A stretch of 64,000 nt of DNA, from the NCBI RefSeq assembly GCF_025526975.1, contig NW_026515670.1, positions 186,001 through 250,000 on the forward strand, given 5' to 3'. Shown here one piece after another: positions 1 to 17,323 of this stretch; position 1 is the first letter of the stretch, and each line of letters opens with the position of its first letter. The notes beneath the pieces were generated by a model that saw only the letters and a list, made by a program, of their open reading frames with translations, was not told where the DNA came from and ran no database searches. The stretch is from Fimicolochytrium jonesii (lineage: Eukaryota). The position numbers and the translations under genes were made by a program.

Positions 1-290
1 CGAAATCTACCCTTTCAACTGGATCGGTAGGATCCCCTATGGATCTCTCCACACCAATTGAACAGTTTGTTACCGCCGAACCGATTACTCAAGTTCTTTC
101 CCCAAATCTGGATTCTGCAACACCAACACAGAGAGATATCTTCACCGATTCCCCAGCAGTGAGGGCTCCAGAAAATACACCCATTGCGCCAATAAGGAAA
201 AAGAACAGTACACGAACATCTTTACCTCCCGAGAGATTATCTTATGAACACGGCTGGGAACAATCTTCAAAACGGGCACGAAAAGTATAA
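1..290 (+). CDS. 3' end of a hypothetical viral protein (5'-truncated by window)
   Basis: The frame of ORF 39..290 stays open back to position 3 (KSTLSTGSVGSP-MDLS...). Basic C-terminus SSKRARKV. Confidence 0.5.
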   Translation, partial: KSTLSTGSVGSPMDLSTPIEQFVTAEPITQVLSPNLDSATPTQRDIFTDSPAVRAPENTPIAPIRKKNSTRTSLPPERLSYEHGWEQSSKRARKV

Positions 291-544
291 GATAAAAAGA
301 TCATAATTGTATAGAAGGTTATAATTGTAATATTTGAGAATCATAGAGGATTCTGAAATGTACAAAAGCGCATAAGTTTTAAACGATCTTCTTCCCGGCT
401 CGTCGAGCAAGGATAAATGGAAGCAATTGTGGAGGGATTACACCTTTTTTCGGTTTTCCAGATTTAGTTCTAGCAGGAATGCGAACTGGTTTCAAAACCT
501 TTTGTTTTCTCGGCATTGGTTTCTACTATATGATTAGAAGATTT

Positions 545-1768
545 TTATACAACATCGACGGTTGCTCCAATCAAGATGGTGCGTTGAGCATAGACGGTTG
601 TTTGCAATGAAACACTGGTACTCGGGGCCGGGAGATTGTGATTTGTGATTAGATGTACGTTTCCGGAGCCTCCGAGTAGGTTCAAAGCGCTACTGGAATC
701 TTCATCTGCGCTTTGCCACGAATAACGCATTACGAACTGTTTGTTGTAAAAGTTATCGAGGTCCAAGTCTTCAGAGGCGTATGATGTATTATCATTCATG
801 GAGAGGTTGCCTATCATAACCGTATCTTCTACCTGGAAATCTTCGGTTAAAGGTAATCTATATTGTCCTATCTGATACCTCCATGACTTCAAGTTGGCTG
901 TATCATAAATCAAACTTTTGTCCCCTGATGTAGTGGCGTATTTATTATCGTCTCTAAACCTATGTGTTAATCCGACAATCCGGCCGTTTGTGAGTGGGAG
1001 AATCCAGTTGTTTTGAGACGAACCACTACAGACATTTGAGAGTTGTTGAACACCTACTACATCCATTTCGAGATACTTCCCTGCCCGAATTCCGGACCAC
1101 AATGCGGACATATAAGCGGCACTCGGGACCACAAGTTGTGCTACATAACGAAGATTTGAAACTTCAAAGTATACTCCGGAACCAACATTGCTAAACGCTT
1201 GCTGCGGTGTGTTTAAAGTGAATGTCAATTCCACCAATTGATTCGGCAAAATCGCTAGTGGAATCGGGTTTCCGTTCAAATTTCTCATGGACCCTGCCAA
1301 CAAATGGTGTTTGAATGTGAAAGTTCCGTTGGGATTTTTGAACGCATCCGGGTTACCTGCTCCTTCGTTATATTTCAAATATTTTCGTTTCTCAGCCTCC
1401 ACAAACTGGAGAGTGTCCGCAACAAAACTTGGTACATCTTCAATTTCGTCAACAACTTTTCCGCCAAATCGCACGTTCATCGTTCGGAAGCAAGCCATTG
1501 CACCGATTTGAGAAATCTGCGCATCCGTGACGGGGCTTCCATCCGCATTTTTCACAGAGATGGTTCCCGATAGATACGAGCGTTGAGGTCTCAAAAAGGA
1601 ACTATTGGAATCAACTACGATTTTTATAGCATTTCCAGGTGATTTTGAACTAAACGTCTCCTTGATTGGGCGATAAATCGCAATATTTTCGCTGAGAGCG
1701 TCTGAATGCATCGAAAATTGTCTGCTACTATAGATCCAGTTTGAAGGAACAACGGGATTTGTTGACAT
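545..1768 (-). CDS. Major capsid protein, PLV-type (putative double jelly-roll)
   Basis: 407 aa, beta-strand rich. PLV-MCP-like patterns IKIVVD..FLRPQRSYLSGTISV, GAMACFRTMNVRFGGKVVDEI and PIPLAIL..VELTFTL. Clustered with a penton and an ATPase. Confidence 0.8.
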   Translation of the reverse strand: MSTNPVVPSNWIYSSRQFSMHSDALSENIAIYRPIKETFSSKSPGNAIKIVVDSNSSFLRPQRSYLSGTISVKNADGSPVTDAQISQIGAMACFRTMNVRFGGKVVDEIEDVPSFVADTLQFVEAEKRKYLKYNEGAGNPDAFKNPNGTFTFKHHLLAGSMRNLNGNPIPLAILPNQLVELTFTLNTPQQAFSNVGSGVYFEVSNLRYVAQLVVPSAAYMSALWSGIRAGKYLEMDVVGVQQLSNVCSGSSQNNWILPLTNGRIVGLTHRFRDDNKYATTSGDKSLIYDTANLKSWRYQIGQYRLPLTEDFQVEDTVMIGNLSMNDNTSYASEDLDLDNFYNKQFVMRYSWQSADEDSSSALNLLGGSGNVHLITNHNLPAPSTSVSLQTTVYAQRTILIGATVDVV

Positions 1769-1823
1769 TATTTTTAGTTATAATGGTTTAACATATCTCT
1801 AAGAAAAAAATAATCAACGTCCA

Positions 1824-2294
1824 TCAACGTCCGCCAAAGATTCCCATATACGGATCATCATCTGCTTCGGGAGGATCGAATTCTACAAACGTGTTTTCCT
1901 CCACAGAGTCGTCTTTGTACGCAGCAGGTTGAAGCGCTTTGGGCATTCGATTGATTTTTGCTATACGCTCTTGTCGCTTTTGTTCAGCAATTTTCTTTTT
2001 TTCCGCTTCATATTTCTCAATTATCTTTCTTGCTTCGTCTTTTTTAGATTCTTTTGCCCTTTTCTCTTGCTCCTTTTCCTGCTCTTTATCTACTTTCTCT
2101 TTGATTTCCTTCATCTTCTTCAAGTTCTCGGTACGTTTCTCTTGCGCTCGACGCATCGCTTCGATCTGTTTTTCAGATCGCGGTTTTTTGACCTTCACCT
2201 TTTCAATAACAGCCTCGGTGATCGGGTCGTCAACAATGGGTTTTTCTTCCTGAACAGAGGGGTTTTCAGTAGATGCGCTTTCGTTTTCTGACAT
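1824..2294 (-). CDS. Small K/E-rich coiled-coil viral protein (possible DNA-binding or core protein)
   Basis: First ATG at 2294 (MSENE). KKPRSEKQIEAMRRAQEKR segment. Lies between the capsid genes. Confidence 0.65.
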   Translation of the reverse strand: MSENESASTENPSVQEEKPIVDDPITEAVIEKVKVKKPRSEKQIEAMRRAQEKRTENLKKMKEIKEKVDKEQEKEQEKRAKESKKDEARKIIEKYEAEKKKIAEQKRQERIAKINRMPKALQPAAYKDDSVEENTFVEFDPPEADDDPYMGIFGGR

Positions 2295-2335
2295 TTTGTT
2301 CAATGTTTTACTGTACAGAAGAGAAAAAAAATTCG

Positions 2336-3085
2336 TTATACAACGAGATCACTAGGATCATCATAGATTCCCAAATGAATTGTTATTGGAGCGGATGTTC
2401 TCACAACTTGCAACGATGCGCTATCGACAATCTGGAAGTCAATTTGATTGATTGTTAGATCTTCGGCTCGATGAAAGTTGTCACTCGGGTTGACCCATGT
2501 CAAGATATCTCCATACGAATCAGGATTGATCGCCGCTAAACAATTGATGTCCGAGTCAATACCAGCCGGATAAAGAATCGCTCCATTTGTCTGTAGAGTC
2601 CTTGAAGTTATTAGAATTGGTTGTGACGCCGACAGATTGAGTGTGTTTGGAAATGTTATACTTGATCCGTATCCGGTTTCATTCACCTTATCGATCCCAA
2701 GTTGCAGAAAAGCGCTTGAACCACGGGATCCTCCAAGGATCTTGAACGTTTTACTTCCAGAGGTTGAAACAGTTAGTCGTCGAGTCACTCCATCGTAAGA
2801 AACACTGTACGGTTGTGAGCCCGCTGCAGTCATCGCGCTTCCAAGAGCACCCAAAACGTTTGTTGAGTCATAGGTCCCTTCGGGCAAAGTCGCTTTTCTT
2901 AAAGTCGTAGATCCCGACTCTGCAAAAACAACCGCGTTGTTAAAATCCGATGTCGCACGCCATGACTGCAGTAGAGATACCGAAATCAGTCTCCAGGCAT
3001 AGCACGGGACGGTATTTTGAAGACGAAATGTACAATTATTCATATCTGGTAACGTACCAGAATTGAGGATAATCTCTCGAAACAT
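2336..3085 (-). CDS. Minor capsid (penton) protein
   Basis: 249 aa. IILNS, LISVSL, NNAVVFAE, LPEGTYD, YSVSYDGVTRRLTV and C-terminal INQIDFQIVD match Polinton/PLV penton patterns. Confidence 0.75.
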   Translation of the reverse strand: MFREIILNSGTLPDMNNCTFRLQNTVPCYAWRLISVSLLQSWRATSDFNNAVVFAESGSTTLRKATLPEGTYDSTNVLGALGSAMTAAGSQPYSVSYDGVTRRLTVSTSGSKTFKILGGSRGSSAFLQLGIDKVNETGYGSSITFPNTLNLSASQPILITSRTLQTNGAILYPAGIDSDINCLAAINPDSYGDILTWVNPSDNFHRAEDLTINQIDFQIVDSASLQVVRTSAPITIHLGIYDDPSDLVV

Positions 3086-3140
3086 CGATTTCTTATCTTT
3101 TGTATAATGTAAAGAGATTAATTTTACGAGTGCGCTAAAT

Positions 3141-3875
3141 ATGAGAATTGCTAAACCAAAAATTCCTTATGAATATCAGATACACATAAAGGACAAGACG
3201 CCCGATGACTATCCGAAGAAATTCTTCACTTTGACTCTAGTCGGGAGTTCAAGAGCAGGGAAAACTACCTGTATTATCAATCTCATCCAGAATTGTGCAA
3301 AAGCGTATGAAAATGTTGTGGTTTTCTCTCCAAGCGCTGACTCGCCGGAATGGACCAGTTTGAAGAAATGCGATAATGTGTACATGTCCAGCATTGTGTC
3401 GAATCACATACTCAACAACCTTTTCGAGAAGCAGAAAAGTCTTTACAAACAAGATAAATGCAAAAATCATATGCTGTTAATTCTGGATGATTTTGGTATC
3501 CTTGCAAAAGAAAACGGCCCCGCAATTGGAAAGGAACCTAAAGAACCCGAACTCGTATCGAGCGGTATAAGACAGATGTTAGACTTATTGTACTCCAGGG
3601 CGAGACATAATGGGATGTCCGTTCTCTGTTCTCTTCATGATACGAAACAATTGACTCCGCTCCAACGAGTCAACAGCACTCATTGGATATTGTATCGACT
3701 TAATCAGAAACAGTACGAGAAGATTGCGGGTGAGTTTCGCTGTCATTTGTCCGAGTCGGAGTTTGTAGATTTAGCCGAGAGATATACTGTCAATCCTTAC
3801 CATGCGCTCTACGTCGATTTGAAAAGCCCGACAAACGAAGGGGTCTTTAAACAATTGCAACCAGAAACGCATTAA
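3141..3875 (+). CDS. A32/FtsK-HerA-type genome packaging ATPase
   Basis: Walker A LVGSSRAGKTT, Walker B LLILDD, and SRARH arginine-finger motif followed by a hydrophobic strand. Confidence 0.9.
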   Translation: MRIAKPKIPYEYQIHIKDKTPDDYPKKFFTLTLVGSSRAGKTTCIINLIQNCAKAYENVVVFSPSADSPEWTSLKKCDNVYMSSIVSNHILNNLFEKQKSLYKQDKCKNHMLLILDDFGILAKENGPAIGKEPKEPELVSSGIRQMLDLLYSRARHNGMSVLCSLHDTKQLTPLQRVNSTHWILYRLNQKQYEKIAGEFRCHLSESEFVDLAERYTVNPYHALYVDLKSPTNEGVFKQLQPETH

Positions 3876-3903
3876 AGAAAAAATTGTGGACTAAAAGTAT
3901 AAG

Positions 3904-4125
3904 ATGATTGATAACATTTTCTATTTGCCAAATTCGCTAACCAAAGAATCGTTCGACAAACTTATAGAAGACCTATCACAGGATAGGCTTTGGTTAGACA
4001 TGCGGGAGGACGTAAGGACGAGAACTTTACAGCAATGTAAGGAAGAAATAGTTGTGAATATCGTTCAGTCGCATTTGGACAAGCAAGTTCCAGTTAAAAC
4101 TCCAAGAAGAAAAAAGGCCGCTTGA
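3904..4125 (+). CDS. Hypothetical small viral protein
   Basis: 73-aa ATG ORF filling the intergenic gap. Basic NLS-like tail PRRKK. Confidence 0.45.
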   Translation: MIDNIFYLPNSLTKESFDKLIEDLSQDRLWLDMREDVRTRTLQQCKEEIVVNIVQSHLDKQVPVKTPRRKKAA

Positions 4126-4350
4126 AGATTTACGTCCCGAATATGACGTAAAACTATTCTACAAGTTGAGCAACAAAAGACTTCCGCGCGACCAAACTCC
4201 TGAACAAATAATGCCATTTACTATTTGGGTTGTGCTTTTTCAGGTTGATTCGGGCTTTACCTATACAGTTTGACTTCTTAATTGACTGCATCAAGCCCAA
4301 GAAACAGGCCCAGGTATTTTTCTCAATTTTTTACCGAACAATGACAAAAA

Positions 4351-4381
4351 AATTGACCACAACATTAATTTGTGGTCAATT
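4351..4381. repeat. Perfect 12-bp inverted repeat with 7-bp spacer
   Basis: AATTGACCACAA-CATTAAT-TTGTGGTCAATT, ending just upstream of the integrase ATG at 4395. Confidence 0.9.
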
Positions 4382-4394
4382 GGTAAAGAAACTA

Positions 4395-5717
4395 ATGGCT
4401 CCTCCTTTAACCGAAGAGCAATTGAGATTCATCAACGATCTTTACTACAAGAAACATAATATACAGGGTCGGGATAGACTGTTTTTTCTAACTCAAAAAC
4501 TCGGGTCGGACATCTCCAGACGCCAAATAATGGATTACCTGGATAAGCAAGAAATCCATCAGAAATTCACTCGTCCGCTCCGATTTACTGGCGTCAGAGC
4601 GATTGTCTCTACCAAGCATGGATCTTTCCAAGCGGATACTTTAGCAATGGAAAGTGAGAGTTATCGAGGTTTCACGGCAATCTTTTCAATGATAGATACT
4701 TTCAGTAGAAAGTTATACGCGAAGCCGATACGTACAAAATCCGCTGCCGAATGTACCCGAGTCCTCCGAGAGATTCTCGCACAAAATCCCAATATTGTCT
4801 TTAATCGATTGCAAACCGATAACGGAACCGAGCTCCAAAATGTTTTTCCAGAACTTCTTCGGGAGCAAGGAGTGCGACATGATGTCTCTCGTCCGGGTCA
4901 ACCGTTTTCTAACGGACTTATAGAAAGAAGCAATTTTGCGGTACGAAAAGCATGCGTAACTTATATGGAAACGACGGGGAAAAGAGATTGGCCAGACATG
5001 CTAGACAAACTGGTCGATAATTTGAACAATACATTCAACAGTACAACAAGAAAAAGTCCAAACGAACTGGAGGAAACCGCTGCAGATTCGGAAATTCATA
5101 AACAGGCTGGGGAGAACATTATAGACAGAGCAAATAGATCAGTACAAACTCGTGGAGCAACCTTGCTCCATGAGGGCGACAAAGTTCGTAGAGTACTCCA
5201 ATATTCTGGAAGCGGTATCAAGAAAGCGTCGCGGCTCGGATATTTCGACATAAACAATTTGTATGAAGTGACATCCGTTGTTCAAAGTCCTTACCCGAAC
5301 GCGTTACCGAGTTATAAACTTAAAGACGCAAACGGAACCATACTCAAAGGATTGTCGTCGCGAGCGCAACTTCTTAAAGTTCCGTTCAGTGATCATCGGA
5401 TCGATGGGAGACAAATGTTAAACGAAGACGACAACAGTCAACCTGGTGGAGCAGATGGTGGAGCAGATGCTCCGGCAAACATAGAAGAAGACGAGGAAGA
5501 ACAGCCTTCCAGACGTTCGGGACGAATCAATAGAGACAGAGAATACGAAGTGGAGTACATTATTGATAAAAGAAGAGTCAAAGTGGGAAGACGAACATTC
5601 ATTGAATATCTAGTAAAATACAAAGACTATCCTATCGATCAAAGTACTTGGGAACGTGTGAGCAACATAAATGCGCCAGATCTAATTCGAGAATTCGAGA
5701 ATCGTAATAGGCGCTAG
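4395..5717 (+). CDS. Retroviral-type (rve, DDE) integrase with C-terminal chromodomain
   Basis: FQADT, IDTFSRK, LQTDNGTE and NGLIERSN give the DDE core. EYEVEYIIDKR..EYLVKYKDY..STWE is a chromodomain. Likely start is ATG 4395 (MAPPLT). Confidence 0.92.
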   Translation: MAPPLTEEQLRFINDLYYKKHNIQGRDRLFFLTQKLGSDISRRQIMDYLDKQEIHQKFTRPLRFTGVRAIVSTKHGSFQADTLAMESESYRGFTAIFSMIDTFSRKLYAKPIRTKSAAECTRVLREILAQNPNIVFNRLQTDNGTELQNVFPELLREQGVRHDVSRPGQPFSNGLIERSNFAVRKACVTYMETTGKRDWPDMLDKLVDNLNNTFNSTTRKSPNELEETAADSEIHKQAGENIIDRANRSVQTRGATLLHEGDKVRRVLQYSGSGIKKASRLGYFDINNLYEVTSVVQSPYPNALPSYKLKDANGTILKGLSSRAQLLKVPFSDHRIDGRQMLNEDDNSQPGGADGGADAPANIEEDEEEQPSRRSGRINRDREYEVEYIIDKRRVKVGRRTFIEYLVKYKDYPIDQSTWERVSNINAPDLIREFENRNRR

Positions 5718-5723
5718 GTCAAA

Positions 5724-6716
5724 TCATTTCTTGTCAAAGATCAAAGACTTGTATCGATTATAGTATTGTTGATGAACCGAGTAAGTATGATCGAGTCTTT
5801 TCTCAATTTTCCTTTGATATTCCAAGTCGCCATTGTCCTTCTCGCTCAGATAAATACCGAGACTTTGACGAAATCTTGAAACAGTCAAACGGCGCTTTTT
5901 GAACATTTTCTCCATAACATCCGCGAATCTATTCAGAAACCATTCATCTGTTGGATCGCCTCCGTTCTGTTTGCAGAAAAGGTAGTTCTGACCGGCCTTT
6001 TGTCGAGCCTCCATGAGCAATTTCGCGTATTTTTTCCCATTACCTTTCAGATTGATTTCGTGGGAACGACCTGTTTTGTTTGCATCTTTGACGACTATTT
6101 TAGAACAGTCGCTCTCAATGTAAACATCCGCGTTTTGATCGAAACATGTGGTGGAGATATCCCCTCTCAACATTTTATCGCTTGACCAAAATATGATAAG
6201 GGCAACAAGCATTTGATTTTCGATAATATTCTCACTTGTAAGTGTGGAAAGGACTTCTTTGATTTTGCCGACTATTTCAAGAAACGGAACATAGTTTTCA
6301 AGATCCAGTTCGGTCATTTTTTGTTCATCGTTTTCCTTTTGGCGTTTCTCTTTTTCTTCGGGAGAAAGGGACATCTTGGTGAAGTGTTCGAGGATATCCT
6401 CATTGAATTGCTTATCGACCATCTCGTCGCTAAGATCTTTTTCATTATCAAAAAGAATCCGCTTTTCTTTAGCGCTCATATTTCTAAGGACTTTCGAGAG
6501 AAACTTCACTTTATTGGCGCGGGTATGCTTATTCGACCATTTTTTCTCGATTGACGAAAGTAGATCTTTAGGCTTTTTTACAAGATGAAGTTGATCGCTC
6601 AGTACGTTACAGGACGATACCATGGATCTGTGATCCTTATTGCTGTCCTTAATGCGATTGAGGACGCCTAGGCAGAATTTATGGTTGAAAGCGGAGTTTT
6701 GATTGTTGTCTGACAT
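5724..6716 (-). CDS. Tyrosine recombinase (viral type)
   Basis: Catalytic-like residues in the expected order: MLRGD (R), ANKT (K), SRFRQS (xxxR), LDHT (H), HQQYY (Y). Confidence 0.75.
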   Translation of the reverse strand: MSDNNQNSAFNHKFCLGVLNRIKDSNKDHRSMVSSCNVLSDQLHLVKKPKDLLSSIEKKWSNKHTRANKVKFLSKVLRNMSAKEKRILFDNEKDLSDEMVDKQFNEDILEHFTKMSLSPEEKEKRQKENDEQKMTELDLENYVPFLEIVGKIKEVLSTLTSENIIENQMLVALIIFWSSDKMLRGDISTTCFDQNADVYIESDCSKIVVKDANKTGRSHEINLKGNGKKYAKLLMEARQKAGQNYLFCKQNGGDPTDEWFLNRFADVMEKMFKKRRLTVSRFRQSLGIYLSEKDNGDLEYQRKIEKRLDHTYSVHQQYYNRYKSLIFDKK

Positions 6717-6872
6717 TATTCTCTATTATAAACGTGTATATGTTTATACCAGAAAATAGTTCTATGGCCGATATAAAAAATCGGCCTACTTATGCTTAAT
6801 TGGATGTCATCAAAATTACGATCCTATTACAATTAAATTCGGTAAGTTGATATGAATTAAGTCATGATGATG

Positions 6873-8527
6873 TCATGACACATCAAAGTCACCTTTTCCG
6901 TTTTTGGACAAGTCCTTCATTTTCCTCCCAGATAGCAAATCTGTGCGGCCATTCAATTTTGCGATGTAAGTCAATCGCTTCTCGCCCTCTCCCTCGATAA
7001 TGATCTTGACTATGTCGATCAAGAAGTAGATTCTCGAACGGGGCTTTGTGCAATAATGTGGATGCATTTGAGCCCATATAGGATGCGTTACATCTACCCA
7101 AGGGTGGAAATAATCGGCAAGATCCCGGATTTTAACTTGACCCGATTGAGATTCGGTAGTCACATTATCGAGGAACTCGAAAAACCAATCCGTGCGGAAT
7201 CCGTCGATTTCGGAGGGAATTCTTTTGATATTGCTCTCGCCAGACATCTTGTCGTTCAAGATGATAATGTTTTTGTTCATGTCGCCAATTGCATCCGTTA
7301 TGCCATTGAATCCCTTTTTCAATTCTTGCAGAAGCATTTCGGTCATACTCTCATCCCCCAAAACACTGGAATATCCAGTGCTTTTAACCATTGCGCTGCT
7401 AGATGACTCTCCACGATCCACTGGTAACGAGAAGAAGAAAATAACATTCTTGTCAATACAATTCGCGTGATGGAATAGATTGAGTAGGTACAACCTTTGG
7501 ATCGCTTCACGGCAGGAATGAATGTGGCAGGTTGTGCTGGTCGTTTACCCTCACGTCTATCGGCTGCGGCCTTTCTTTTTTGCTCCATTCTTTCCTGTTT
7601 CATCCGTTTTGCAGCAGCGCGATCTTGAGCCAGCCTTTCCCTTTTCTCTTCTTTTTTCTTCTGCTTTTCATGAATTCTTCGCATTTGTTCCTCCAGTGAC
7701 AATCCAGACCCATTCTCGTTGTCACTCAAATCTTCGTCGTCAATGTCATCTTTGCTATCATCATCACCATCATCTTCGGAATCGGAATCGGTGGGTGATC
7801 CACGAGATTGCCGCGAGGGGTACTTATTATCGCCAGAAGGTTCAATAGACACTTGACGTGAATTCTTTTTCACTGTTTGCTGCTTGGGAGGTGATAAATG
7901 ACGACTACTTTCTGGGTTTTCGTACTCCGGTCGGTTCATGCCAGTAGCATCGTTGTCCGAATTATCATCCGAAGTGCTCACATACGGTTTGCTGAACACG
8001 GATTTGCTTCCACGACGTTTACGAGGAGTTGACTGACCACTCCGTTGTTCCCCTTCACTGTTCCTTCTGGAAGATATCTTCTCCTTTTCAACTTTGTTTT
8101 CCAACTCTTTCATCTTCTCCTTCGCTTTCTGAATCTTTTCGAATGCTTTCCGTTCCCTGGCTGCGATTTGTTCTTGCATTTTCTTTAGTTGTTCGTCCGC
8201 AGTGCGCCTTTTCCTTTTGGCTTTGCCGGATTGATGGTTTGTATCTTCCGTACTCGCAATCTCAGCAGGTGCAGGTTCGGTTATTTTGACAGAATTGTTT
8301 GTCCCCGCAATCTCAGCAGGTGCAGGTTCGGTTATTTTGACAGAATTGTTTGTCCCTGTTAAAAGGACATTTTGCTCGGTATGAGATTCCGTGGAAAGCA
8401 GTTCATTTTTGTCGATTCCAATTGCTACAAACCGCAACAAAAAATCGTGAGTATAACCTGGGATCAAAGTATCTCGAAATTTGCGATTCTTACAATCTGT
8501 TTCGTCGTGTCCTTCTCTGAACGACAT
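6873..8527 (-). CDS. Two-exon viral protein (~526 aa): low-complexity/coiled-coil region plus C-terminal winged-helix-like domain; predicted intron 7421..7494
   Basis: ORFs 7343..8662 and 6873..7493 are joined in frame (KRSK-V-DRGESS) by a GT..AG segment with a TTGAC branch-like site and a pyrimidine tract. First in-frame ATG is at 8527. Confidence 0.65.
8255..8356. repeat. 51-bp tandem duplication inside a viral CDS
   Basis: Two adjacent copies encoding GTNNSVKITEPAPAEIA twice on the minus strand. Confidence 0.95.
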
Positions 8528-8793
8528 TGATAGAGTTACAGGTATTGATGTTTGTGGAATGTCCAGTTCGGTGTTTATTCCAGTCTCGTTTCTCAAATCC
8601 ACCCGGTGAATCTTCCAAGAAACTGAATGATTTCCGCAGCGACCTGGTATTACTTTAAACACGAAACGCGCTCTCTGTCCACATTACATTCGGACGGTGA
8701 ATGCGAGCGACACTAAGACGTACGCTTTTCCTTTCTCGAATCCACTTTCAAAGTTGGATATTGCACTTTCCGATAAGCATTACTGCATTCAAA

Positions 8794-9018
8794 ATGGATA
8801 ATATCCCTACATACAGTCCCAGCGTAAAAGCGCTCACAAACGATACCGAATCGCTTGCAGCAAATATCGGCGAACTTCTGGAATCCGACAATTTAAGTGA
8901 AGATGTTCGCTTTCATTTGGAATCCTTTCGAGTTCACTTAACGGAACACCTTGCAAAGGCCCAAGCCTTGTCGGTTTCTTGGGACAAGATCTTGGAACTT
9001 GCGTCCAAAAAATGGTAA
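8794..9018 (+). CDS. Hypothetical small helical viral protein
   Basis: ATG in an A-rich context (AAAATG), 74 aa, amphipathic. Confidence 0.5.
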   Translation: MDNIPTYSPSVKALTNDTESLAANIGELLESDNLSEDVRFHLESFRVHLTEHLAKAQALSVSWDKILELASKKW

Positions 9019-9077
9019 AATTGCGTTTGCTCATTATTTAAAGCAATCGACAGAGTAACTTATAACTTCTTTTTATT

Positions 9078-9281
9078 ATGCCCAGAGAAACGATCCGTGG
9101 ACGGCCTATGAAGCACCCGTCAAATGGAAGACCCCTCATTCCACCGAGAACACGAAAATGCAAGGAAGAAACTTGCAATGAAATTATTCCATTTCAACCC
9201 AGACGGATGTACTGTTTAACCCATTTCATGAAAAAAATTGAACTCCCAGTTGGGTTTCAACTTGAACCGGATAGCGATTGA
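9078..9281 (+). CDS. Small zinc-binding protein
   Basis: CKEETC...YCLTH (C-x4-C...C-x2-H) with a basic N-terminus. Confidence 0.5.
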   Translation: MPRETIRGRPMKHPSNGRPLIPPRTRKCKEETCNEIIPFQPRRMYCLTHFMKKIELPVGFQLEPDSD

Positions 9282-9286
9282 TGTTC

Positions 9287-9517
9287 TCACCCGTTGTCCA
9301 CCTTTTTCACCTTCCGAGTAATGGAGATGTTTCTTGCAGATCGGCATGTTGGTTTTCGAGCGATAATGTCCAGAACTGTACATTGGCACAGATTCAGTTT
9401 CTTTGCCAAGTCGCGAAGGCTCTTTCCATCGATTTGTTTAATTTCTCCGTCATAAAAGGATATGTCCGCTGTATATGTGAACGGACTAAGCATTTCCGAT
9501 GTTGCTTTATTAATCAA
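9287..9517 (-). CDS. Small helix-turn-helix (NUMOD1-like) DNA-binding protein
   Basis: KSLRDLAKKLNLCQCTVLDII HTH pattern. Divergent from the polymerase-helicase gene. Confidence 0.5.
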   Translation of the reverse strand: MINKATSEMLSPFTYTADISFYDGEIKQIDGKSLRDLAKKLNLCQCTVLDIIARKPTCRSARNISITRKVKKVDNG

Positions 9518-9585
9518 GATAAATATTATGAAATCACCTGCGTTTAAATGCCATTTAAAGTATTGATTGTATTAAGAATAAAGCA

Positions 9586-12405
9586 ATGAGTCAACACAAA
9601 CAAACTCTAACTGGGGAAAAACGCGCGGCAATGGACGCCGGGTTTGTCAAGTCTTCTAAACGCTTGCGTGTAAACGACCGAGTCCGACGTGACCGTGCAA
9701 TAAGCGCTGGGGATTATGATCTCGCAAGAAAGATCGAAGAAGAAGCAATTCCCTTTGCTGGGAGGGAATCGCATCTATCTATTGGAGACAATGGAAGCGA
9801 TATCATCAATACTAGTATCGTATGTAGTGAAAGCAGTGAAGAGGCTCATTCTTCGGAAAGGGACATGGAAAGCACCCATTTACCGAACATTCCAGGTGTA
9901 ACATACCGAGGTGAAGTTGATAATGACCAAGATGACCAAGATGACCACCTTTATCATGAAAAATTTGACCTTCCCCTCGTCAAGCACGAGTTCCAACACG
10001 ACGGTCGAGTTCAGAACTTGATTACAAGCAAATACGTGGACGCAAAGACTAAAAACGGGCTTCGATATATGAAAAGATTCAAAGTTGCACCAAATACGTA
10101 CAAAGTCGAATATAATCATGGAAAAGATGCTTTGGAAATTGCTAGCGGGCGACTTGTACCAAATCATTTCTCGTTGCAGCAAATGCCCGCACGCGAAACC
10201 CAGCATAGACAGTATCTGTCTTGCGGGCAATACGACGACGTCGATTTAGTAAACTGTCAGCCGACTATTGCCAATCAGTTTCTCCTTCAACGCAATCTAA
10301 TTGTTCCGCAAATGCAATACTATGTTGAAAATCGACAGGACTGTCTTAAAAAATGGAATATGGAGAAACATGATGTGATTGCGGTACTCAACACCGTTAA
10401 CGCGGTAAATTGGCACCCCGATCTCAAAGCCATTCACCGTGCCATTTATGAGAAACTCGTCCCCATTCTTAAAGGGGAAAACCCTGATATTTGGCAAAAA
10501 GTTTTGAAATCTCGAAAACCGAAAACAGTAAATAACCGCGAAGGATCATTTTTCTCGCAGGTGTGCCAAACGACCGAAAACACGATGCTACTTCTTATGC
10601 ACCACTACTTTCTTAATGCAAAGTTTCGTCCCGATGTTCTCATTTCTGATGGTTGCCAGATTCGTAAAGATCCCGAAAATCCTCTTACCCCTGACCACTT
10701 GCGAGCATGCGAGCAATACATCTTTGACAAAACTCAAATGCAGACGAGGATAGCCATTAAACCTATGGAAGTTCCCGCCTCCTACTATGAAAGATTTGGT
10801 TTAATTGCGGATAATGATCATCACCAATTATTTCCCATCCTGGATGAGAACACGGTATTTGCTGATTCAACCGAGGAGAAAGAGCCTTTATTTCTCGAAC
10901 CTTTGTACCCAGAAAATCCACGTCTTGACGAACTAGCGAAGAGCATGATCTGTGAAAAGTCTCACGCGGCATGTGCTCAATTCATCTCCGAATTATGGAG
11001 AAACGATTTCTTCTATGGAGATAATAGTTGGTGGCACTTTGAAAATCATTACTGGAAAGATTCACCTTATTCTATGACGCATAAAATAATGTTCGAGTTA
11101 TTCCCAATTCTTGACGAATTGACAAGTTGGCGCGACACAGGTGGTGATCTAGATGGACATATCTCGAATCTCAAGCGGAGTTTATCAGATTTACCCACAT
11201 CCAAGAATATCGCATCCGCGTGTATTGGTCATTTTCAGAAACTAGACTATCACGCATTTAAATGTAGTTTGAATCGAGACTTGGCGCTACTGTGCTTTAA
11301 AAATGGAGTCTACGATTTGAACGCCGGGCATCTTAGGGATGGCAAACCCCAAGACCGCATCTCTATACAGATTAATTACGACTTTGTTGATTTTTCGCTT
11401 CCGGAAAACGTGCATATTTTCAAGCGTCTTGGGACGATTCTCCAACAAATCCTTCCGGATCGTGACGAGCGGGAGTATGTTCTTGATATCCTGGCTTGTG
11501 CTCTTGGAGGAAAAAGGACCAATAAACTTGAAATCCTTCTCGGCGAGGGCGCAAATGGGAAATCGCTGCTGACTCAACTTATGGAGTTAGCATTAGGGCC
11601 ATATGCAACCTCTTGGAGCACCGCAATGCTGTGTACAGAATTCGACCCTACCGCACCAAACACCGAGTTGAACAGGGCCAGACACGTCCGATTCATCAAT
11701 ATCCAAGAAGGCAAGAAATCATCGCAGTTTAACATGGAAACATTTCGAAAGTACACGGGAGGAGATTCTTTCAATGGTATACGTGATCTGTTTGAGAAAG
11801 GAAGCGGGGTAACTTCATTCGTACTGCATGCTCAACTTTGGCTATCACTCAATACGCTTATGGCAATATCCGAGGCGAACCACGCGACTTGGAGACGGTT
11901 AGAGTTGCTTGAAATGCGGTCCAAATTTGTCGAGGATGAGTCTGAGGTAGATGTGAAAAACAATCGGTATCTCGCGGATGAGTGTTTGAAGAACGAACTG
12001 CACAGTCTTGCTCCGGCATTTATGTGGTTATTGGTGGAAAAACGCTACAGAGACATGCGAGATAAGAATGACTTTGTTTTATCTCCGCCCACCTCAGTTA
12101 TTGAAGCAACGGAGAGATATCGCAGTGAACAGAATGTTTATCAACTCTTCTTTGATGACATGTGTACCTTTGATTCTGAAGGTCGCATCTTCAATACGGA
12201 ACTATTTGAGAAATGTCAGCAGTGGGCAAAAATCAACCTTAAAGCGGTTACAAAGGCCGATATGAAAAAGTGGCTGTTGAACCAACCGGGCGTTCAATGG
12301 AAAGATTCGTTAAAGATCATGAAAAGCGTAGGCGACTTTGGTCAAAGAAGTGTAGAGAAAGTGTCACGAGGATATCTAGGAATCAAATTGAATAAGTATG
12401 AGTAG
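9586..12405 (+). CDS. TVpol (divergent family A polymerase/primase) fused to D5-like superfamily 3 helicase
   Basis: PolA-like motifs SGRL..SLQQMP, DVDLVNCQP, CQTTE and LISDG. D5_N LLCFKNGVYDL. SF3 Walker A GEGANGKS, Walker B FINIQE, motif C LSLN, WRRL. wHTH-like C-terminus. Confidence 0.85.
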   Translation: MSQHKQTLTGEKRAAMDAGFVKSSKRLRVNDRVRRDRAISAGDYDLARKIEEEAIPFAGRESHLSIGDNGSDIINTSIVCSESSEEAHSSERDMESTHLPNIPGVTYRGEVDNDQDDQDDHLYHEKFDLPLVKHEFQHDGRVQNLITSKYVDAKTKNGLRYMKRFKVAPNTYKVEYNHGKDALEIASGRLVPNHFSLQQMPARETQHRQYLSCGQYDDVDLVNCQPTIANQFLLQRNLIVPQMQYYVENRQDCLKKWNMEKHDVIAVLNTVNAVNWHPDLKAIHRAIYEKLVPILKGENPDIWQKVLKSRKPKTVNNREGSFFSQVCQTTENTMLLLMHHYFLNAKFRPDVLISDGCQIRKDPENPLTPDHLRACEQYIFDKTQMQTRIAIKPMEVPASYYERFGLIADNDHHQLFPILDENTVFADSTEEKEPLFLEPLYPENPRLDELAKSMICEKSHAACAQFISELWRNDFFYGDNSWWHFENHYWKDSPYSMTHKIMFELFPILDELTSWRDTGGDLDGHISNLKRSLSDLPTSKNIASACIGHFQKLDYHAFKCSLNRDLALLCFKNGVYDLNAGHLRDGKPQDRISIQINYDFVDFSLPENVHIFKRLGTILQQILPDRDEREYVLDILACALGGKRTNKLEILLGEGANGKSLLTQLMELALGPYATSWSTAMLCTEFDPTAPNTELNRARHVRFINIQEGKKSSQFNMETFRKYTGGDSFNGIRDLFEKGSGVTSFVLHAQLWLSLNTLMAISEANHATWRRLELLEMRSKFVEDESEVDVKNNRYLADECLKNELHSLAPAFMWLLVEKRYRDMRDKNDFVLSPPTSVIEATERYRSEQNVYQLFFDDMCTFDSEGRIFNTELFEKCQQWAKINLKAVTKADMKKWLLNQPGVQWKDSLKIMKSVGDFGQRSVEKVSRGYLGIKLNKYE

Positions 12406-12432
12406 GGAGGGGAAAAGTAGAAGCGGGGGTAG

Positions 12433-12847
12433 GTAGCCATTAAGAGCAATCCGTAGTCATTCAGGTAGCCATTTTTTCTGACTCGACAAGGAACTTTAGA
12501 TCGAGTGAAAGGTTGAATTTGATAAGAAGAATGAAGAGAATAATATGAAGAGAATAGAAAGTAGCCAAGTAGCCATTTATTTTGGAAAGGTGTTATAGTA
12601 TAAATTTTGATCAACAAGGTGGTGGTGGTGAATATGACCACCACCTTGAGGAGCACAGTTTTATATATACGGAGAGAATTCTGGCAGAAAATGGCTACTT
12701 GGCTACCATTTGAAACGCTCGACGAAACGGCTCGATAAAAATCAGTGAAAGACGCGTGTTCACTCGATAAAGAGGGAAAGTATGGAGAGGAGGGAAATGG
12801 CTACGAAACGGCCACGAAGTGGCTATGAAATGGCTAAAAATGGCTAC
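12433..12847. promoter_or_regulatory. Convergent iteron array around a hairpin; candidate replication origin
   Basis: GTAGCCA copies on the left (12433, 12465, 12561, 12569) and TGGCTAC-type copies on the right. 18-bp perfect IR 12561..12578/12689..12706. Central 12-bp IR 12615..12626/12637..12648. Five ~11-bp units at 12794..12847. Confidence 0.6.
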
Positions 12848-12989
12848 CACTCGATAACGTTGTTATTCGCGCAAAGTAACAGAACCAATCCGGAGACAAC
12901 GGAGAGGGTTGCGTGTAGTCCTGGCAAGAATTGGCTCGAAGTCGTTTAATAAACAAAGGCCCAGCGAGGTCACGTGACTGGAGTCGTGC

Positions 12990-13160
12990 CGATAGGCTGT
13001 TGAGATCTGTAGGATAGGCTGACGAGATCTGTGGCCCATAGACTCATATGCTGAGAATAGGCTGTTGAGGACTATGGGCCATTGACCCGTAGGCTGTTAA
13101 GAAGTATGACCTATAGACCCCGTAGGCTGTTGAGAAGTATGACCTATAGACCGATAGGCT
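12990..13160. repeat. Degenerate TAGGCTG-containing tandem repeats, including a 33-bp near-perfect duplication
   Basis: CCCGTAGGCTGTT(A/G)AGAAGTATGACCTATAGACC twice at ~13086..13152, plus several ATAGGCTG copies. Confidence 0.85.
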
Positions 13161-13162
13161 AC

Positions 13163-13210
13163 TGTCATAGGCCACCCATAGGCTGTACAGCCTATGGGTG
13201 GCCTATGACA
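13163..13210. repeat. Perfect 48-bp palindrome without loop
   Basis: TGTCATAGGCCACCCATAGGCTGT|ACAGCCTATGGGTGGCCTATGACA. Confidence 0.97.
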
Positions 13211-13503
13211 ACGGCCCATACCGAAAAGTGGATGCACCACCCCCCCCGGAGGAAGTCAACGGCAAACTCGAACACCGAGTTGAAGACACCCTCGACTCCA
13301 AGTGGGTATGCAACGCCGAGATGTTCCTGGTCAAATGGGCCGGCTACGACGTGTCCCAGAACACCTGGGACCCACTCCGACAGGTCTGTGACACCTCGGC
13401 CCACAAGCGATATGTCCGAAAGCAAGCCGCCAAGCGCCAGGAGACTCGGGAGACCAAGGCAAAGGAGAGAGCGGCAGTCTCTTGTCGCAGTAAACGTATC
13501 TGA
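13198..13503 (+). pseudogene. Degenerate chromodomain, resembling the C-terminus of Ty3/Gypsy chromovirus pol
   Basis: PPPPEEVNGKLEHRVEDTLDSK..FLVKWAGYDVSQNTWDP. No upstream integrase or RT. Confidence 0.7.
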
Positions 13504-13558
13504 ACCTTGTACATACAGAGTTTCTACTGTCCGAAATGATCATTACCATTACGGACTC

Positions 13559-13778
13559 ATGCGGGCGGGTACTAGTACCAAGGCCTGTGATGCGGGCGGG
13601 TACACAGTATCAGGGCCTATGATGCGGGCGGGTACGTAGTACCAGGGCCTATGATGCGGGCGGGTACGAGGTACCAGGGCCTATGCGAGCGAGCAAGCGA
13701 GGTGTCAGGGCTCATGCGGGCGGGTATGCAATACCAAGGCCTAGGATGCGAGCGGGTGCGAGGCACCAGGGCTCAGGA
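13559..13778. repeat. Minisatellite, ~7 copies of a ~30-32-bp unit
   Basis: ATGCGGGCGGGTAC..GTACCAGGGCCT units in tandem with no unique spacers. Confidence 0.9.
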
Positions 13779-13966
13779 CGATCAGTGAAGTACCAAAGGG
13801 AAACGCTCCGAAGAGATCAAATTCCACAAAATATATACAAGAAAGAAGAACGACGACGCCAGGCTAAATATCAGCCTGTTTGGCGAAAGACCATTGGCAA
13901 CGTGAGCCGTGGCAGGCGGTCCCCATGCCACAACGCAGCGGGACGAACTGCTGGACGTTCATCTGG

Positions 13967-14621
13967 CTAGAGGGAGCGCGTCACGTCAGTGGCGCAACCT
14001 GTCAAAAACTCACAACTGTTGTACTTACACGCGGACATGCCCCATAAACTGGATGTGGTCGCAGGGGAAGACCGCACGTCCTCGGCCAGACAATTGCAGT
14101 CGGGCCACACACAGGTGCAGGGTAGCGCCTGGCAGAAGAGCGGCACTTCACACTCCTCCCCGAAACCATCCATGTAGCCGCACGTGAACTCCTTGATGGG
14201 TGTGTCGGTCTGTTGGGAAGGAACGTGAGCTGTCAGTCACCCCACGGGAACCACCCATGACATGCGGTTCCTTAGGGTGTCATCACAGAGCAGGAGGATG
14301 CAAGGCCGGCATATAACGTGCTGGCACGCCGAGAGGAACATTTTGCGGGGGCGGTACGTGTTGCAGTTCCAACACGTAGGTCGGGCCGGTGGAGCCGGGG
14401 GCACCGGGGTACTGTCCGAGTGCACCTCGGGGGTGTCCTGAGATAGAATTGGTCAAACCACGTAAGTTCGGTCAATTGGGCAACCCCCGTGGACTCACCA
14501 CTCGCTGTCGCTTGAGAGCCTTCTTCAGGCTGTCCCCTGTGGTGGGGCCCTCGCCTACTTTCTTCTTGCCCGATGACGGGCCAGCGGCAGTGGGCTTGGC
14601 AGGAGGAGCTACGCTGGCCAT
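13967..14621 (-). CDS. Small multi-exon RING-finger / cysteine-rich protein (possibly degenerate)
   Basis: Exon MASVAPPAK..KRQRV, then a GTGAGT..CAG intron, then CWNC..CQHVICRPC (C3HC4-like). The downstream piece FTCGYMDGFGEEC has an unclear splice donor. Confidence 0.5.
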
Positions 14622-14725
14622 AGTGAAGAGGGGAACGGCGACGGTGAGAGGTTACGAGATTGGGAGCAAGAAATGTGTTATGGACGACGCGCCCATACCA
14701 TAAGCTTACCTACTGACAGCCGCCA

Positions 14726-14885
14726 ATGTCAACCGCCAAATGTCAAACGCCAATGTCAATGTCAATGTCAGTGTCAATGTCAGTGTCAATGTCAATGTCA
14801 ATGCCACTCCCCCTCTCTCCTCTCATTTCGCCAATCCTCTTGCAATATCGCCACTCCTCCTCTCTCCTCTCATTTCGCCAATCCC
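14726..14885. repeat. (TGTCAA)n microsatellite followed by a ~35-bp pyrimidine-rich duplication
   Basis: Repeated TGTCAA/TGTCAG, then CTCTCTCCTCTCATTTCGCCAATCC twice. Confidence 0.9.
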
Positions 14886-15215
14886 CCCTCGGCTTCTCCA
14901 CACCCCCCACTGCTTCCCCATAGCCAGCAGCTGTAGCAATGCTCTCTACGCTCGCCACGCACGCTCTAGGAGCATAGCTGGCGCCCCCCAGTCCCCTCTT
15001 GTTGTTGTTGTTCTCTGATCTGCTGGGTTGCCCATCTATAAATAGCCGGCCTCTCTTCGTCCATTCCCTTCCTCCCCAGCAGATCAACACCAGTTCTTCT
15101 CATCTCCTGTTCTAGTCCTTGTTTCTTGTTTCGCCAATACAATCTCTTGTCGCCTATCACACTCGCCCTGTCTTCTCTACTTCGCTTCCGCCCCCGTCGT
15201 CGAGATCATAACAAA

Positions 15216-16600
15216 ATGTAAGTCCGGGGACTGGCGGGAAGGTGCCAAGGGCGTACTGCCTTTTTTTTATATGCCACAGGGACAAGGACGATAGCGCCCC
15301 ACGACCAGCTGCGGCCGAATCATCTCTACCTCATATCGGCGTGGATCTGATTGCCATCGTGGTGACCACCGGTGACGCCAGCTGCTCCAGTAGAGCCATG
15401 CGCACTCCTCATGGCCGACACCTGTGTCAGCTCCACATCAAGTAACAGCGGGGAGCGACTGACAGGTGCGGTCGGTGTCGGAGTGACACTTGGCTCTAAG
15501 GGGGGTGTAATGAGGTGCTGCAGGTGTCACCTTAGTGCGGGGAAGCGCGTAGGGCATGAGATCACGTGGAGCATATATTATATTGGAGTTCTACGCTCTG
15601 GGGTGACTCCCAAAGGGAAGAAAAGCCTTCGGGCGGCGCCCCGGGAGGTAGAAACTCTAGATTTCTTCCAATACATCGAGCAGAGACAGAGCTAGCCCCT
15701 GGCAACGGGCCTAGCATTATTACAGACTGGGAGGGCGAGATGGTCTATGCGGGGTTTGGGGAGAGGCCGGCAAAGGCGAGGGGCCTGGATGGGCTTGAGC
15801 GAATTGAACCCCGGGCAGGGGCCGACATCTACATCCGCGACGAGCACGGCGCCCTTGTGGCCACAATCTCGTACATTACCGCGGGTCGTTGCGAACACGA
15901 CCTACGGCTGGGGCTCATCGTCGAGTCCTGTGGATCCCGGCCGGCTGTGGTTCGATGGAAGGCCTCAAGGGGCACAATGCATGCCGCGGGGCTTTGTCGT
16001 GGCCACAAGAACTCGGGATATGCCAGGGGGACATCGCACTATGCAATGAAAGGAGGGGAAAAGAAGTTTCTCGTTGCCACGGAAAAGGCCTTCACCAAGC
16101 GACTGCTGCAGGAGCTCGCCAAACGCAACCCCACCGTGGAGGCCTACCTGATGATGGCCATGCCAGAGGTGTACAGGCCAAATTCCGATGAGTTCCCCCC
16201 GCGGTTCGCCACCACCAACTATCAAGTGGTCGTTCACTGCGACCCGTCGGACGACGGCGTAGCCGGCGAGCTGAACCCGCACACAGGACGCACCATATGG
16301 AAGCCGACCCCGAAGGAGGAGCTTCTGGAGGAGCTTCAAGCCCGCAAGCTATGCGCATGGGCGGCAGGCTATGCCGCCGCTCCGCCAACCGTCGTCGGCG
16401 AGTGGGTATTTGTGCTGCCAGAGCAAGGCTTCTAGTTGGTGCTGCAGCCCAACTGCATGTGGACGTGGATGCCTGACAAGCTCCACGGAACGGCGGTGCT
16501 TGACACGTCCGGCGGCAGTCGCCACACAGCTGTTGTGACGCTGCCCCTGGCGACGGCCGCGGCCATCCGGAAATACGGCCTCCCTGATGAAGATGAATAA
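15216..16600 (+). pseudogene. TET/JBP-like 2OG-Fe(II) dioxygenase, disrupted
   Basis: GTMHAAG and NYQVVVHCDPSD (HxD). Reading past TAG 16433..16435 gives LVLQPNCMWTWMPDKLHGT..SRHTAV (distal H and R) up to TAA at 16600. Probable frameshift near 15690. Possible AT|G start split by intron 15218..15279. Confidence 0.6.
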
Positions 16601-16872
16601 CCCGGCAGTCATCCGTTCGGACCTTTTAGGTCGCCGGTCTAATATATAGCAACCCTCTGCTCTCTAACTCATCATCCGCTTGGGCCTTTTTGGGCGTCGG
16701 CTGTTAGTGTAGAAATGAATGCAATGTACACAAGTCGCTACCCACGATGGTCTTCTGAAAAGCCTTCCTGAATCACACACAGCGTTCGAAAACTGTTAGA
16801 AACGGTCGAAGCGATTTGGATGAGGGCAGGATCGATTTGGATGAGGGCAGGACATCGGGGCCTCAAGTTGGT

Positions 16873-17095
16873 TTCCCGGTTTGACGTGCGGGGGACAAAT
16901 TTCTCCCCCAAATCCATTGAGGGCTGATTAGTACAGCGTGGGGCGAAAATCGTTCCCCCGACGGCGTCGCGGAGAGCACTGTCCCCGGGCACTTCCCGGT
17001 TTGACGTGCGGGGGACGAATTTCTCCCCAAAATCCATTGAGGGCTGATTAGTACAGCGTGGGGCGAAAATCGTTCCCCCGACGGCGTCGCGGAGA
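16873..17095. repeat. 103-bp direct repeat, period 120 bp
   Basis: 16873..16975 versus 16993..17095, nearly identical. Confidence 0.95.
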
Positions 17096-17323
17096 ATAGA
17101 CGGAGGTCACCAGTATCCCTCATATCGCCGCCATCTTTGGGTCGGATCGCGCACGGGGCTCTCGCTCTCGCGCATGAGCCCCTCATATCATCTCCCATAT
17201 CATCAAATGCATCTCATTTACTATTTCGCCGAAGTCGGGTCTCGCCGTGCGCGATCCGGCGTCGTTGGGTCCAAAGATGTGCTGGATCATATGTATTTAT
17301 TTATCGTTTATAATATACGTGTA

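What the first reader, a model, noticed from the sequence alone, without database searches (positions are those of the whole stretch)
1..12850. Apparently intact endogenous Polinton-like/virophage-like virus in a chytrid-like fungal genome, with an unusual module combination
Seen: uninterrupted MCP, penton, packaging ATPase, integrase, tyrosine recombinase and polymerase-helicase ORFs in an AT-richer block contiguous with intron-rich host DNA. Known: MCP + penton + A32 ATPase define the Polinton/PLV/virophage morphogenesis module. Inference: a recently integrated and possibly reactivatable dsDNA virus of an early-diverging fungus. The visible part has TVpol-SF3 rather than protein-primed PolB, two integration enzymes, an intron and an iteron origin. 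This is the best candidate for an undescribed system in the window.
Basis: partly seen in the sequence, partly recalled or inferred. Interest (0 to 1): 0.92.

Follow-up and report, generated by a model that had tools for sequence, protein, structure and literature searches.

The report
Hairpin-ended Polinton-like virus in chytrid fungus
A small capsid-encoding DNA virus with unbroken core genes sits inside a dead jumping gene of what is likely a soil chytrid fungus and ends in a perfect 48-base palindrome; such fungal viruses are already known, but this one likely copies itself as a hairpin-ended DNA using a two-enzyme toolkit described mostly in protist virophages.

Summary
Observation largely confirmed; novelty overstated. 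ORF 545-1768 folds as a double jelly-roll capsid protein. An A32 ATPase, an RVE-chromodomain integrase and a D5/SF3 helicase are detected. Penton, tyrosine recombinase (YR), TVpol domain and intron are likely but less well supported. The element ends at 13210, not 12850: a perfect 48-bp palindrome ending in CA abuts a host retrotransposon chromodomain. A mirror-symmetric iteron origin follows the helicase gene. The left end lies outside the window, so intactness is unproven. All named MCP relatives in its clade come from Spizellomycetales chytrids. Chytrid Polinton-like viruses are published. RVE + YR + non-PolB replicase is known from mid-GC EMALE virophages; terminal palindromes and RVE + YR are known from Halocafeteria elements. 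That combination is reported as absent or rare in true PLVs, so this is a new variant of a known kind. Likely mechanism: RVE integrates a hairpin-ended genome into heterochromatin, TVpol-helicase replicates it from the internal origin, and YR resolves ends or targets giant viruses.

The parts
1..290 (+). 3' end of an ORF running in from outside the window; virus-like composition, function unknown
   Evidence: composition score 6.8, reached by 1 of 161 host windows; no homolog among longer proteins
379..516 (-). 45-aa basic ORF just downstream of MCP, possibly a DNA-binding core protein (inference)
   Evidence: no Pfam hit
545..1768 (-). Major capsid protein, double jelly-roll, 407 aa
   Evidence: homologs; keeps 16 of 20 columns conserved in 41 homologs
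1824..2294 (-). 156-aa charged protein between penton and MCP genes, conserved in position
   Evidence: 55% identical over 91 aa to the matching part of Geranomyces gene model P0004, which spans penton-this gene-MCP
2336..3085 (-). Likely minor capsid protein (penton), 249 aa
   Evidence: Atlas 0.98 to viral DUF5901-type clusters; synteny; resemblance by eye to a 'possible mCP' row in the PMC7805220 supplement
3141..3875 (+). A32-like packaging ATPase
   Evidence: Pox_A32 E 4.8e-8; Walker A and B present
3904..4125 (+). 73-aa ORF, unknown
4341..5717 (+). Stand-alone RVE integrase with C-terminal chromodomain (D99, D160, E195; start may be 4395)
   Evidence: HP1 chromodomain E 5e-8, foamy-virus integrase E 7e-6
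5724..6716 (-). Likely tyrosine recombinase, tail to tail with the integrase (R184, K214, SxxR283, H310, Y318/319)
   Evidence: Phage_integrase E 0.0015, below cut-off; motifs; no protelomerase match
6873..8527 (-). Two overlapping ORFs (7343-8527, 6873-7391), possibly one gene of about 526 aa with an intron at about 7494/7491-7421; contains a 51-bp tandem duplication at 8255-8356
   Evidence: no RNA data
8701..9493 (.). Three small ORFs (8701-9018 +, 9078-9281 +, 9287-9493 -, the last HTH-like)
   Evidence: weak HTH hits, E about 0.04
9586..12405 (+). 939-aa replicase: likely TVpol (PolA-like) domain fused to a D5/SF3 helicase
   Evidence: D5_N; P4-family primase C-terminal model E 3e-33, above cut-off; ASFV C962R E 4.5e-13
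12433..12847 (.). Predicted replication origin: 4+4 opposed iterons, mirror-symmetric about 12633, with AT-rich stretches and a 9-bp hairpin (12621-12645) at the centre
   Evidence: distances 61.5/69.5/165.5/197.5 left; 61.5/69.5/167.5/210.5 right
12991..13162 (.). Subterminal TAGGCTG repeats (22- and 33-bp units), likely part of the right terminal repeat
13163..13210 (.). Perfect 48-bp terminal palindrome ending in CA; right end of the element
   Evidence: next-longest perfect arm in 64 kb is 12 bp; 0 of 100 shuffles match the arm; fold z -7.5
13211..13503 (+). Host flank: chromodomain tail of a Gypsy-like (chromovirus) retrotransposon integrase, cut by the insertion
   Evidence: Pfam Chromo E 5.4e-7; frame; the chromovirus label rests on recalled motifs

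Best explanation
This is the right-hand 13.2 kb of a Polinton-like provirus, likely of a Spizellomycetales chytrid, inserted into a retrotransposon remnant, and it likely lives off the chromosome as a hairpin-ended linear DNA. Shown: capsid fold, ATPase, integrase and helicase domains, the iteron array, the palindrome at the junction. Inferred steps: (1) The chromodomain steers the RVE integrase to methylated (heterochromatic) nucleosomes, which fits insertion into a retrotransposon. (2) The integrase nicks the hairpin-ended genome after a CA 24 nt from the tip and joins it to host DNA; repair copies the opened hairpin and leaves the 48-bp palindrome at the junction. (3) The TVpol-SF3 protein loads on the opposed iterons just downstream of its own gene, melts the AT-rich core, primes and copies the genome, as SaPI replicases do. 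(4) The YR is not a second host integrase; it most likely resolves palindromic junctions (release of the provirus, resolution of dimers) back to hairpin ends. (5) MCP, penton and ATPase package the genome without a maturation protease, as in other PLVs. My odds: identity as a chytrid PLV provirus about 0.9; steps 1-3 about 0.6; step 4 about 0.3.
For: MCP fold. All 8 named rows of the 14-row MCP clade (SH 97) are Spizellomycetales (76 rows kept out of the hits by length and rank). DD35E triad and aromatic chromodomain cage present. The palindrome ends in CA and directly abuts a chromodomain coding stretch; its left arm resembles the subterminal viral repeat. The origin layout matches the SaPI rule in PMC9371898 (iterons right after rep, opposed around an AT-rich centre). 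Terminal palindromes go with non-pPolB replicases and particular RVE integrases in Halocafeteria elements. YR goes with PolA/AEP replicases. YR action on hairpin ends has been proposed for entomopox-associated PLVs. The replicase is on record from a 1.79-Mb contig.
Against: The left end, TIR and TSD are not visible, and neither genome nor reads were available. The YR shows no similarity to protelomerases and only a sub-threshold Pfam hit. TVpol is not confirmed (RxxxK missing). An internal iteron origin would make hairpin priming unnecessary and also fits a circular replicon. Cutting both palindromes would break the host chromosome. Imperfect pairing continues 9 bp beyond the palindrome, so the end could lie a few bases further right. 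Chytrid host identity rests on the hosts of viral relatives plus ordinary eukaryotic flank genes, not on a host marker. No relative with genomic context was retrieved.
Confidence: 0.6

Rival explanations
1. Virophage-like satellite of a fungal giant virus: RVE integrates into the fungal genome and YR into the giant-virus genome, and the provirus wakes on giant-virus infection. Compatible with steps 1-3 above; it differs in the role of YR.
For: This is the published reading of RVE + YR in mid-GC EMALEs and Halocafeteria virophages. Mycodnaviridae infect zoosporic fungi; giant-virus MCP remnants are reported in Gaertneriomyces semiglobifer and Fimicolochytrium jonesii, and five giant-virus contigs carry PLV-like integrases. 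The same genera carry relatives of this element.
Against: No giant virus is linked to this element here. A spliceosomal intron, if real, and a chromodomain point to a nuclear phase. A TATAA-like motif upstream of 7 of 13 ORFs was chosen after the fact and occurs in 26% of AT-rich windows.
Confidence: 0.3
2. A silent or truncated provirus: the visible genes are intact only because the insertion is young, and the left part is broken or holds a nested retroelement.
For: The left end is unseen. The peptide at 1-290 ends in an RxTRxxPPERL-like motif reminiscent (recalled) of retroelement integrase tails. Many MCP relatives are short or partial gene models, and the gene model of the 97%-identical replicase skips the motif-A region.
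Against: No stop or frameshift in any core ORF; 92% coding density over 1-12405; catalytic motifs kept; 1-290 is virus-like in composition.
Confidence: 0.25
3. Module in transition: the virus replicates as a YR-excised circle, and the RVE or the palindrome is a leftover or a repair scar.
For: YR usually pairs with PolA/AEP replicases and yields circles; DDE integrases usually pair with pPolB. An end-module turnover model exists. The Halocafeteria authors allow that palindromes may be annealing accidents.
Against: The RVE is full length with an intact triad, and the junction ends in CA, the RVE signature. Earlier unchecked notes report 44- and 50-bp terminal palindromes and the same RVE-YR pair in other chytrid elements.
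Confidence: 0.15
4. Assembly chimera joining a free virus contig to host DNA, with the palindrome as a fold-back artefact.
For: No reads could be checked. Several relatives lie on separate 8-25 kb contigs.
Against: The junction falls just before a retrotransposon chromodomain and ends in CA. Relatives also lie on 1-2 Mb chytrid contigs. A 52-nt terminal palindrome is described elsewhere.
Confidence: 0.05

Closest known systems
Chytrid Polinton-like viruses: S. punctatus group (Bellas and Sommaruga 2021, PMC7805220) and chytrid Aquintovirus ATPase clades (bioRxiv 10.64898/2026.06.19.733378)
   Same: Integrated in a Spizellomycetales genome; MCP + mCP + A32 ATPase; penton similar by eye.
   Different: The published S. 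punctatus element has pPolB and 154-bp TIRs, and a member of its MCP group is 554 aa with best hit SPPG_00925. This MCP is 407 aa and its S. punctatus relatives are other loci (SPPG_02195, 07203, 08453), so it is probably a second chytrid lineage. No chitinase in the visible part.
Powellomyces MELD viruses (Starrett et al. 2021, PMC8502044)
   Same: Spizellomycetales host; non-PolB replicases; the figure legend lists YRec, PolA and S3H among the genes shown.
   Different: Unknown. The gene maps are figures, the supplement search found nothing and BK012054 is not held. One of them could have this same gene set.
Mid-GC EMALEs, types 5-8 (Hackl et al. 2021, PMC8547959)
   Same: No pPolB, long primase-helicase, RVE plus YR.
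   Different: They are Mavirus-type virophages of a protist; no palindrome is mentioned in the main text.
Halocafeteria seosinensis virophages and PLV subtype 4 (bioRxiv 10.64898/2026.07.28.741278)
   Same: Terminal palindromes of about 52 nt next to the TSD, non-pPolB replicases, insertion into transposons.
   Different: There RVE + YR occurs in virophages 'but not PLVs'. In a cryptophyte set (n = 8300) it occurred in 11 PLVs and 1 virophage, always through nested retrotransposons. Here the RVE is a stand-alone viral gene in a PLV of a fungus.
SaPI / P4-type replicons (PMC9371898) and hairpin-ended prophage N15 (recalled)
   Same: Primase-SF3 helicase followed directly by opposed iterons around an AT-rich centre; N15 adds a terminal palindrome processed by a YR-like enzyme.
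   Different: Bacterial, without a jelly-roll capsid; this YR shows no detectable similarity to protelomerases.

Membership tests
Polinton-like virus (Aquintoviricetes umbrella) | Double jelly-roll MCP | tested here: met
Polinton-like virus (Aquintoviricetes umbrella) | A32-like packaging ATPase | tested here: met
Polinton-like virus (Aquintoviricetes umbrella) | Single jelly-roll minor capsid protein | tested here: inconclusive
   Atlas 0.98 to DUF5901-type viral clusters and synteny; not folded; no PDB hit
Polinton-like virus (Aquintoviricetes umbrella) | No maturation protease (PMC4642659) | tested here: inconclusive
   None in the visible 13.2 kb; left part unseen
Polinton-like virus (Aquintoviricetes umbrella) | About 14-40 kb with terminal repeats | not testable with these tools
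   Left end outside the window; no genome held
Polinton-like virus (Aquintoviricetes umbrella) | MCP groups with reference PLV clades | not testable with these tools
   The tree has no labelled PLV references; names were looked up for 20 of the 140 profile hits
Maverick/Polinton | Protein-primed PolB | tested here: not met
   No pPolB in the visible part; a helicase-type replicase is present instead
Maverick/Polinton | RVE integrase | tested here: met
Virophage | Virophage-type MCP | tested here: not met
   407 aa; Sputnik and Mavirus capsids rank 28 and 32 at 10-11% identity, below PBCV-1; no Pfam capsid family
Virophage | Cysteine maturation protease | tested here: inconclusive
   Absent from the visible part
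Virophage | Dependence on a giant virus | not testable with these tools
   Needs co-infection experiments
S. punctatus group PLV | MCP cluster PC_0050 (SPPG_00925-like) | tested here: inconclusive
   SPPG_00925 was not among the named hits; other S. punctatus loci were; weak hits of 516-610 aa may be that group
TVpol-SF3 replicase (PMC2579912) | Hairpin Arg, two palm Asp, RxxxK, fusion to a D5 helicase | tested here: inconclusive
   R189, D218/D220, D355 and the D5 fusion present; RxxxK not at the expected place; Atlas lead; fold failed
Protelomerase / telomere resolvase | Sequence similarity to TelN/TelK/ResT catalytic domains | tested here: not met
   No Pfam match at E<=1, no PDB match at E<=10, no phage match

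The most novel reading that the evidence does not exclude
A Spizellomycetales-wide lineage of inducible fungal dsDNA viruses that works like a eukaryotic phage N15: hairpin-telomere linear genome, SaPI-type internal origin, a tyrosine recombinase acting as telomere resolvase, and a chromodomain integrase that parks the genome in heterochromatin, possibly as a defence against fungal giant viruses.
Probability: 0.2. Interest if true: 0.8.

Novelty: new variant of a known kind. Interest (0 to 1): 0.5.

Why it matters
Small dsDNA viruses of fungi are known here only from genome sequence in the papers I read, and Halocafeteria authors state that how most PLVs replicate is unknown. This copy offers, in a likely culturable host group, unbroken core genes, a sharply defined end and a clearly laid-out origin. 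That makes three open questions directly testable: whether terminal palindromes are opened hairpin telomeres, what the second 'integrase' does, and whether chytrid PLVs respond to the recently described fungal giant viruses. Relatives sit unrecognised as 'hypothetical proteins' in at least seven chytrid genera.

Tried and rejected
No whole genome and no run list, so the left end, TSD, copy number, junction reads and expression are untested. Searches for relatives with genomic context returned no locus: IMG/VR with MCP, MCP alignment, replicase, integrase, YR, ATPase and P0031 (one match, no locus delivered); JGI metagenomes. Two alignments were too diverse to search with. The single-sequence fold of the TVpol region failed (pLDDT 36) and was not used for a fold search. 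No PDB sequence match for the TVpol region, YR or penton. No useful phage match for MCP, YR or TVpol region. The idea that ORF 6873-7391 is a copy of the helicase's winged-helix tail was not supported. No homolog for the ORF at 1-290. No Rfam hit in 1-20000. The first tree run timed out; FastTree was used on 76 rows: full-length hits up to P0100 plus four trimmed or short named ones. The 32-bp repeats at 13558-13772 were rejected as viral: they lie beyond the palindrome in host-like DNA. An upstream TATAA motif was set aside as post hoc and weak. No complex prediction was run.

Full report
Observation. The first 12.9 kb are 42% GC against 57% for the host part and 92% coding over 1-12405. ORF 545-1768, folded with a 13-row alignment (pLDDT 69), matches double jelly-roll capsid proteins: PBCV-1 at E 8.8e-12, TM 0.59, and viral capsid models in BFVD at no more than 14% identity among the 50 listed. 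Pfam finds Pox_A32, rve + chromo and D5_N, and catalytic motifs are present. Penton, YR and TVpol are likely but rest on weaker evidence; my fold of the TVpol region failed. The intron is a possible 71-74 nt in-frame join with a strong acceptor and weak donors.

Boundaries. The element does not stop at 12850. Subterminal repeats lead to a perfect 48-bp palindrome at 13163-13210; the next-longest perfect arm in the window is 12 bp. It ends in CA and is followed at once by the chromodomain tail of a retrotransposon integrase (Pfam E 5.4e-7). No matching repeat exists at the left and bases 1-290 look viral, so the element continues beyond the window. TIR, TSD and completeness are unknown; no genome or reads were available.

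Origin. Right after the helicase gene lie four GTAGCCA and four TGGCTAC copies, nearly mirror-symmetric about a small central hairpin with AT-rich stretches. This is the layout described for SaPI origins (PMC9371898, passages).

Relatives. A word search found 12 MCP relatives at 40-87% identity; all 7 named ones are Spizellomycetales. A profile search found 140 proteins; names were looked up for 20, giving S. punctatus (three loci), Thoreauomyces, Powellomyces, Geranomyces, Phlyctochytrium and, more distant, Rhizophlyctis. In a 76-row FastTree the window MCP sits in a 14-row clade (SH 97) whose 8 named rows are all Spizellomycetales. A Geranomyces gene model spans penton-156aa-MCP in the same order. 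The replicase is on record from a 1.79-Mb contig, and a Fimicolochytrium jonesii record is 97% identical over 863 ungapped residues. No relative with DNA context came from IMG/VR or JGI metagenomes. The chytrid host is inferred from these relatives; the flank holds ordinary eukaryotic genes such as a PRP6-type splicing factor.

Mechanism (inferred). The chromodomain integrase targets heterochromatin and inserts a hairpin-ended genome by nicking after CA; repair of the opened hairpin leaves the palindrome. The TVpol-helicase replicates from the internal origin. The YR most likely resolves palindromic junctions, or else integrates the element into a giant virus. Against this: no similarity to protelomerases, an internal origin also suits a circle, and release would break the chromosome.

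Literature. PMC7805220 (passages, section 7, supplement rows) describes an integrated S. punctatus PLV with pPolB and 154-bp TIRs. PMC8502044 (passages, section 3.4) reports six Powellomyces MELD viruses with varied replicases; its maps are figures and the supplement held is cut, so an identical gene set there is not excluded. bioRxiv 2026.06.19.733378 (passages, section 7) places chytrid ATPases in two Aquintovirus positions and calls replicase swaps common; bioRxiv supplements are closed and may list this lineage. PMC8547959 (passages): mid-GC EMALEs have RVE + YR and a long primase-helicase. bioRxiv 2026.07.28.741278 (passages, sections 6-7): terminal palindromes with a hairpin-priming model, and RVE + YR in virophages but not PLVs. 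PMC12220804 (passages, section 10): RVE + YR in 11 PLVs and 1 virophage of 8300, always from nested retrotransposons. bioRxiv 2026.10.13.758929 (passages, section 11): DDE pairs with pPolB, YR with PolA/AEP. bioRxiv 2023.10.16.562556 (passages) already suggests YR action on hairpin ends. PMC13533422 (passages, section 6): fungal giant viruses, with MCP remnants in two Spizellomycetales. PMC2579912 (parts 1-2 of 3): TVpol features. PMC4642659, PMC11296320 and PMC10120064 (passages); the last excluded fungi from its survey. Searches found no paper describing this chytrid lineage with this gene set; in one search none of the 20 listed papers contained 'protelomerase'. The library lacks most subscription journals. 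N15, chromovirus and retroviral-end motifs are recalled.

Verdict. A real endogenous PLV of a known broad kind, probably a chytrid lineage distinct from the S. punctatus group, carrying a replication and integration kit so far described mainly in virophages. New variant of a known kind; interest 0.5.

Noticed in passing
window 4351-4381: 31-bp inverted repeat (12-bp arms, 7-bp gap) between the two possible start codons of the integrase; second-longest palindrome in the window; could be an operator or RNA hairpin controlling integrase expression.
   Followed up: no
window 13558-13772: About six copies of a 32-bp GC-rich repeat after the host chromodomain fragment, probably in the retrotransposon's 3' region.
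   Followed up: partly
window 15560-16435: 231-291 aa ORF near the insertion with no family hit in Pfam, PHROGs or NCBIfam.
   Followed up: partly
window 16873-17095: Near-perfect tandem duplication of a 120-bp unit (98% matches).
   Followed up: no
window 49026-56022 (- strand): Very large multi-exon host gene with many Cadherin_3 repeats and a C-terminal membrane-like segment; possible giant surface adhesin.
   Followed up: partly
window 8255-8356: Exact 51-bp (17-codon) tandem duplication inside ORF 7343-8527.
   Followed up: no
proteins P0021, P0152, P0153 (S. punctatus SPPG_02195, SPPG_07203, SPPG_08453): Three MCP homologs at 90% or more identity to each other in S. punctatus, annotated as uncharacterised; one model is fused to an AP2-annotated domain.
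   Followed up: partly
protein P0026 (Powellomyces hirtus): 1243-aa gene model that joins an MCP to a long repetitive fibre-like protein, probably a mis-joined neighbouring viral fibre gene.
   Followed up: no
protein P0001: 87%-identical MCP on a 13,029-bp Logan contig, close to the length of the visible element; may be a near-complete relative.
   Followed up: no
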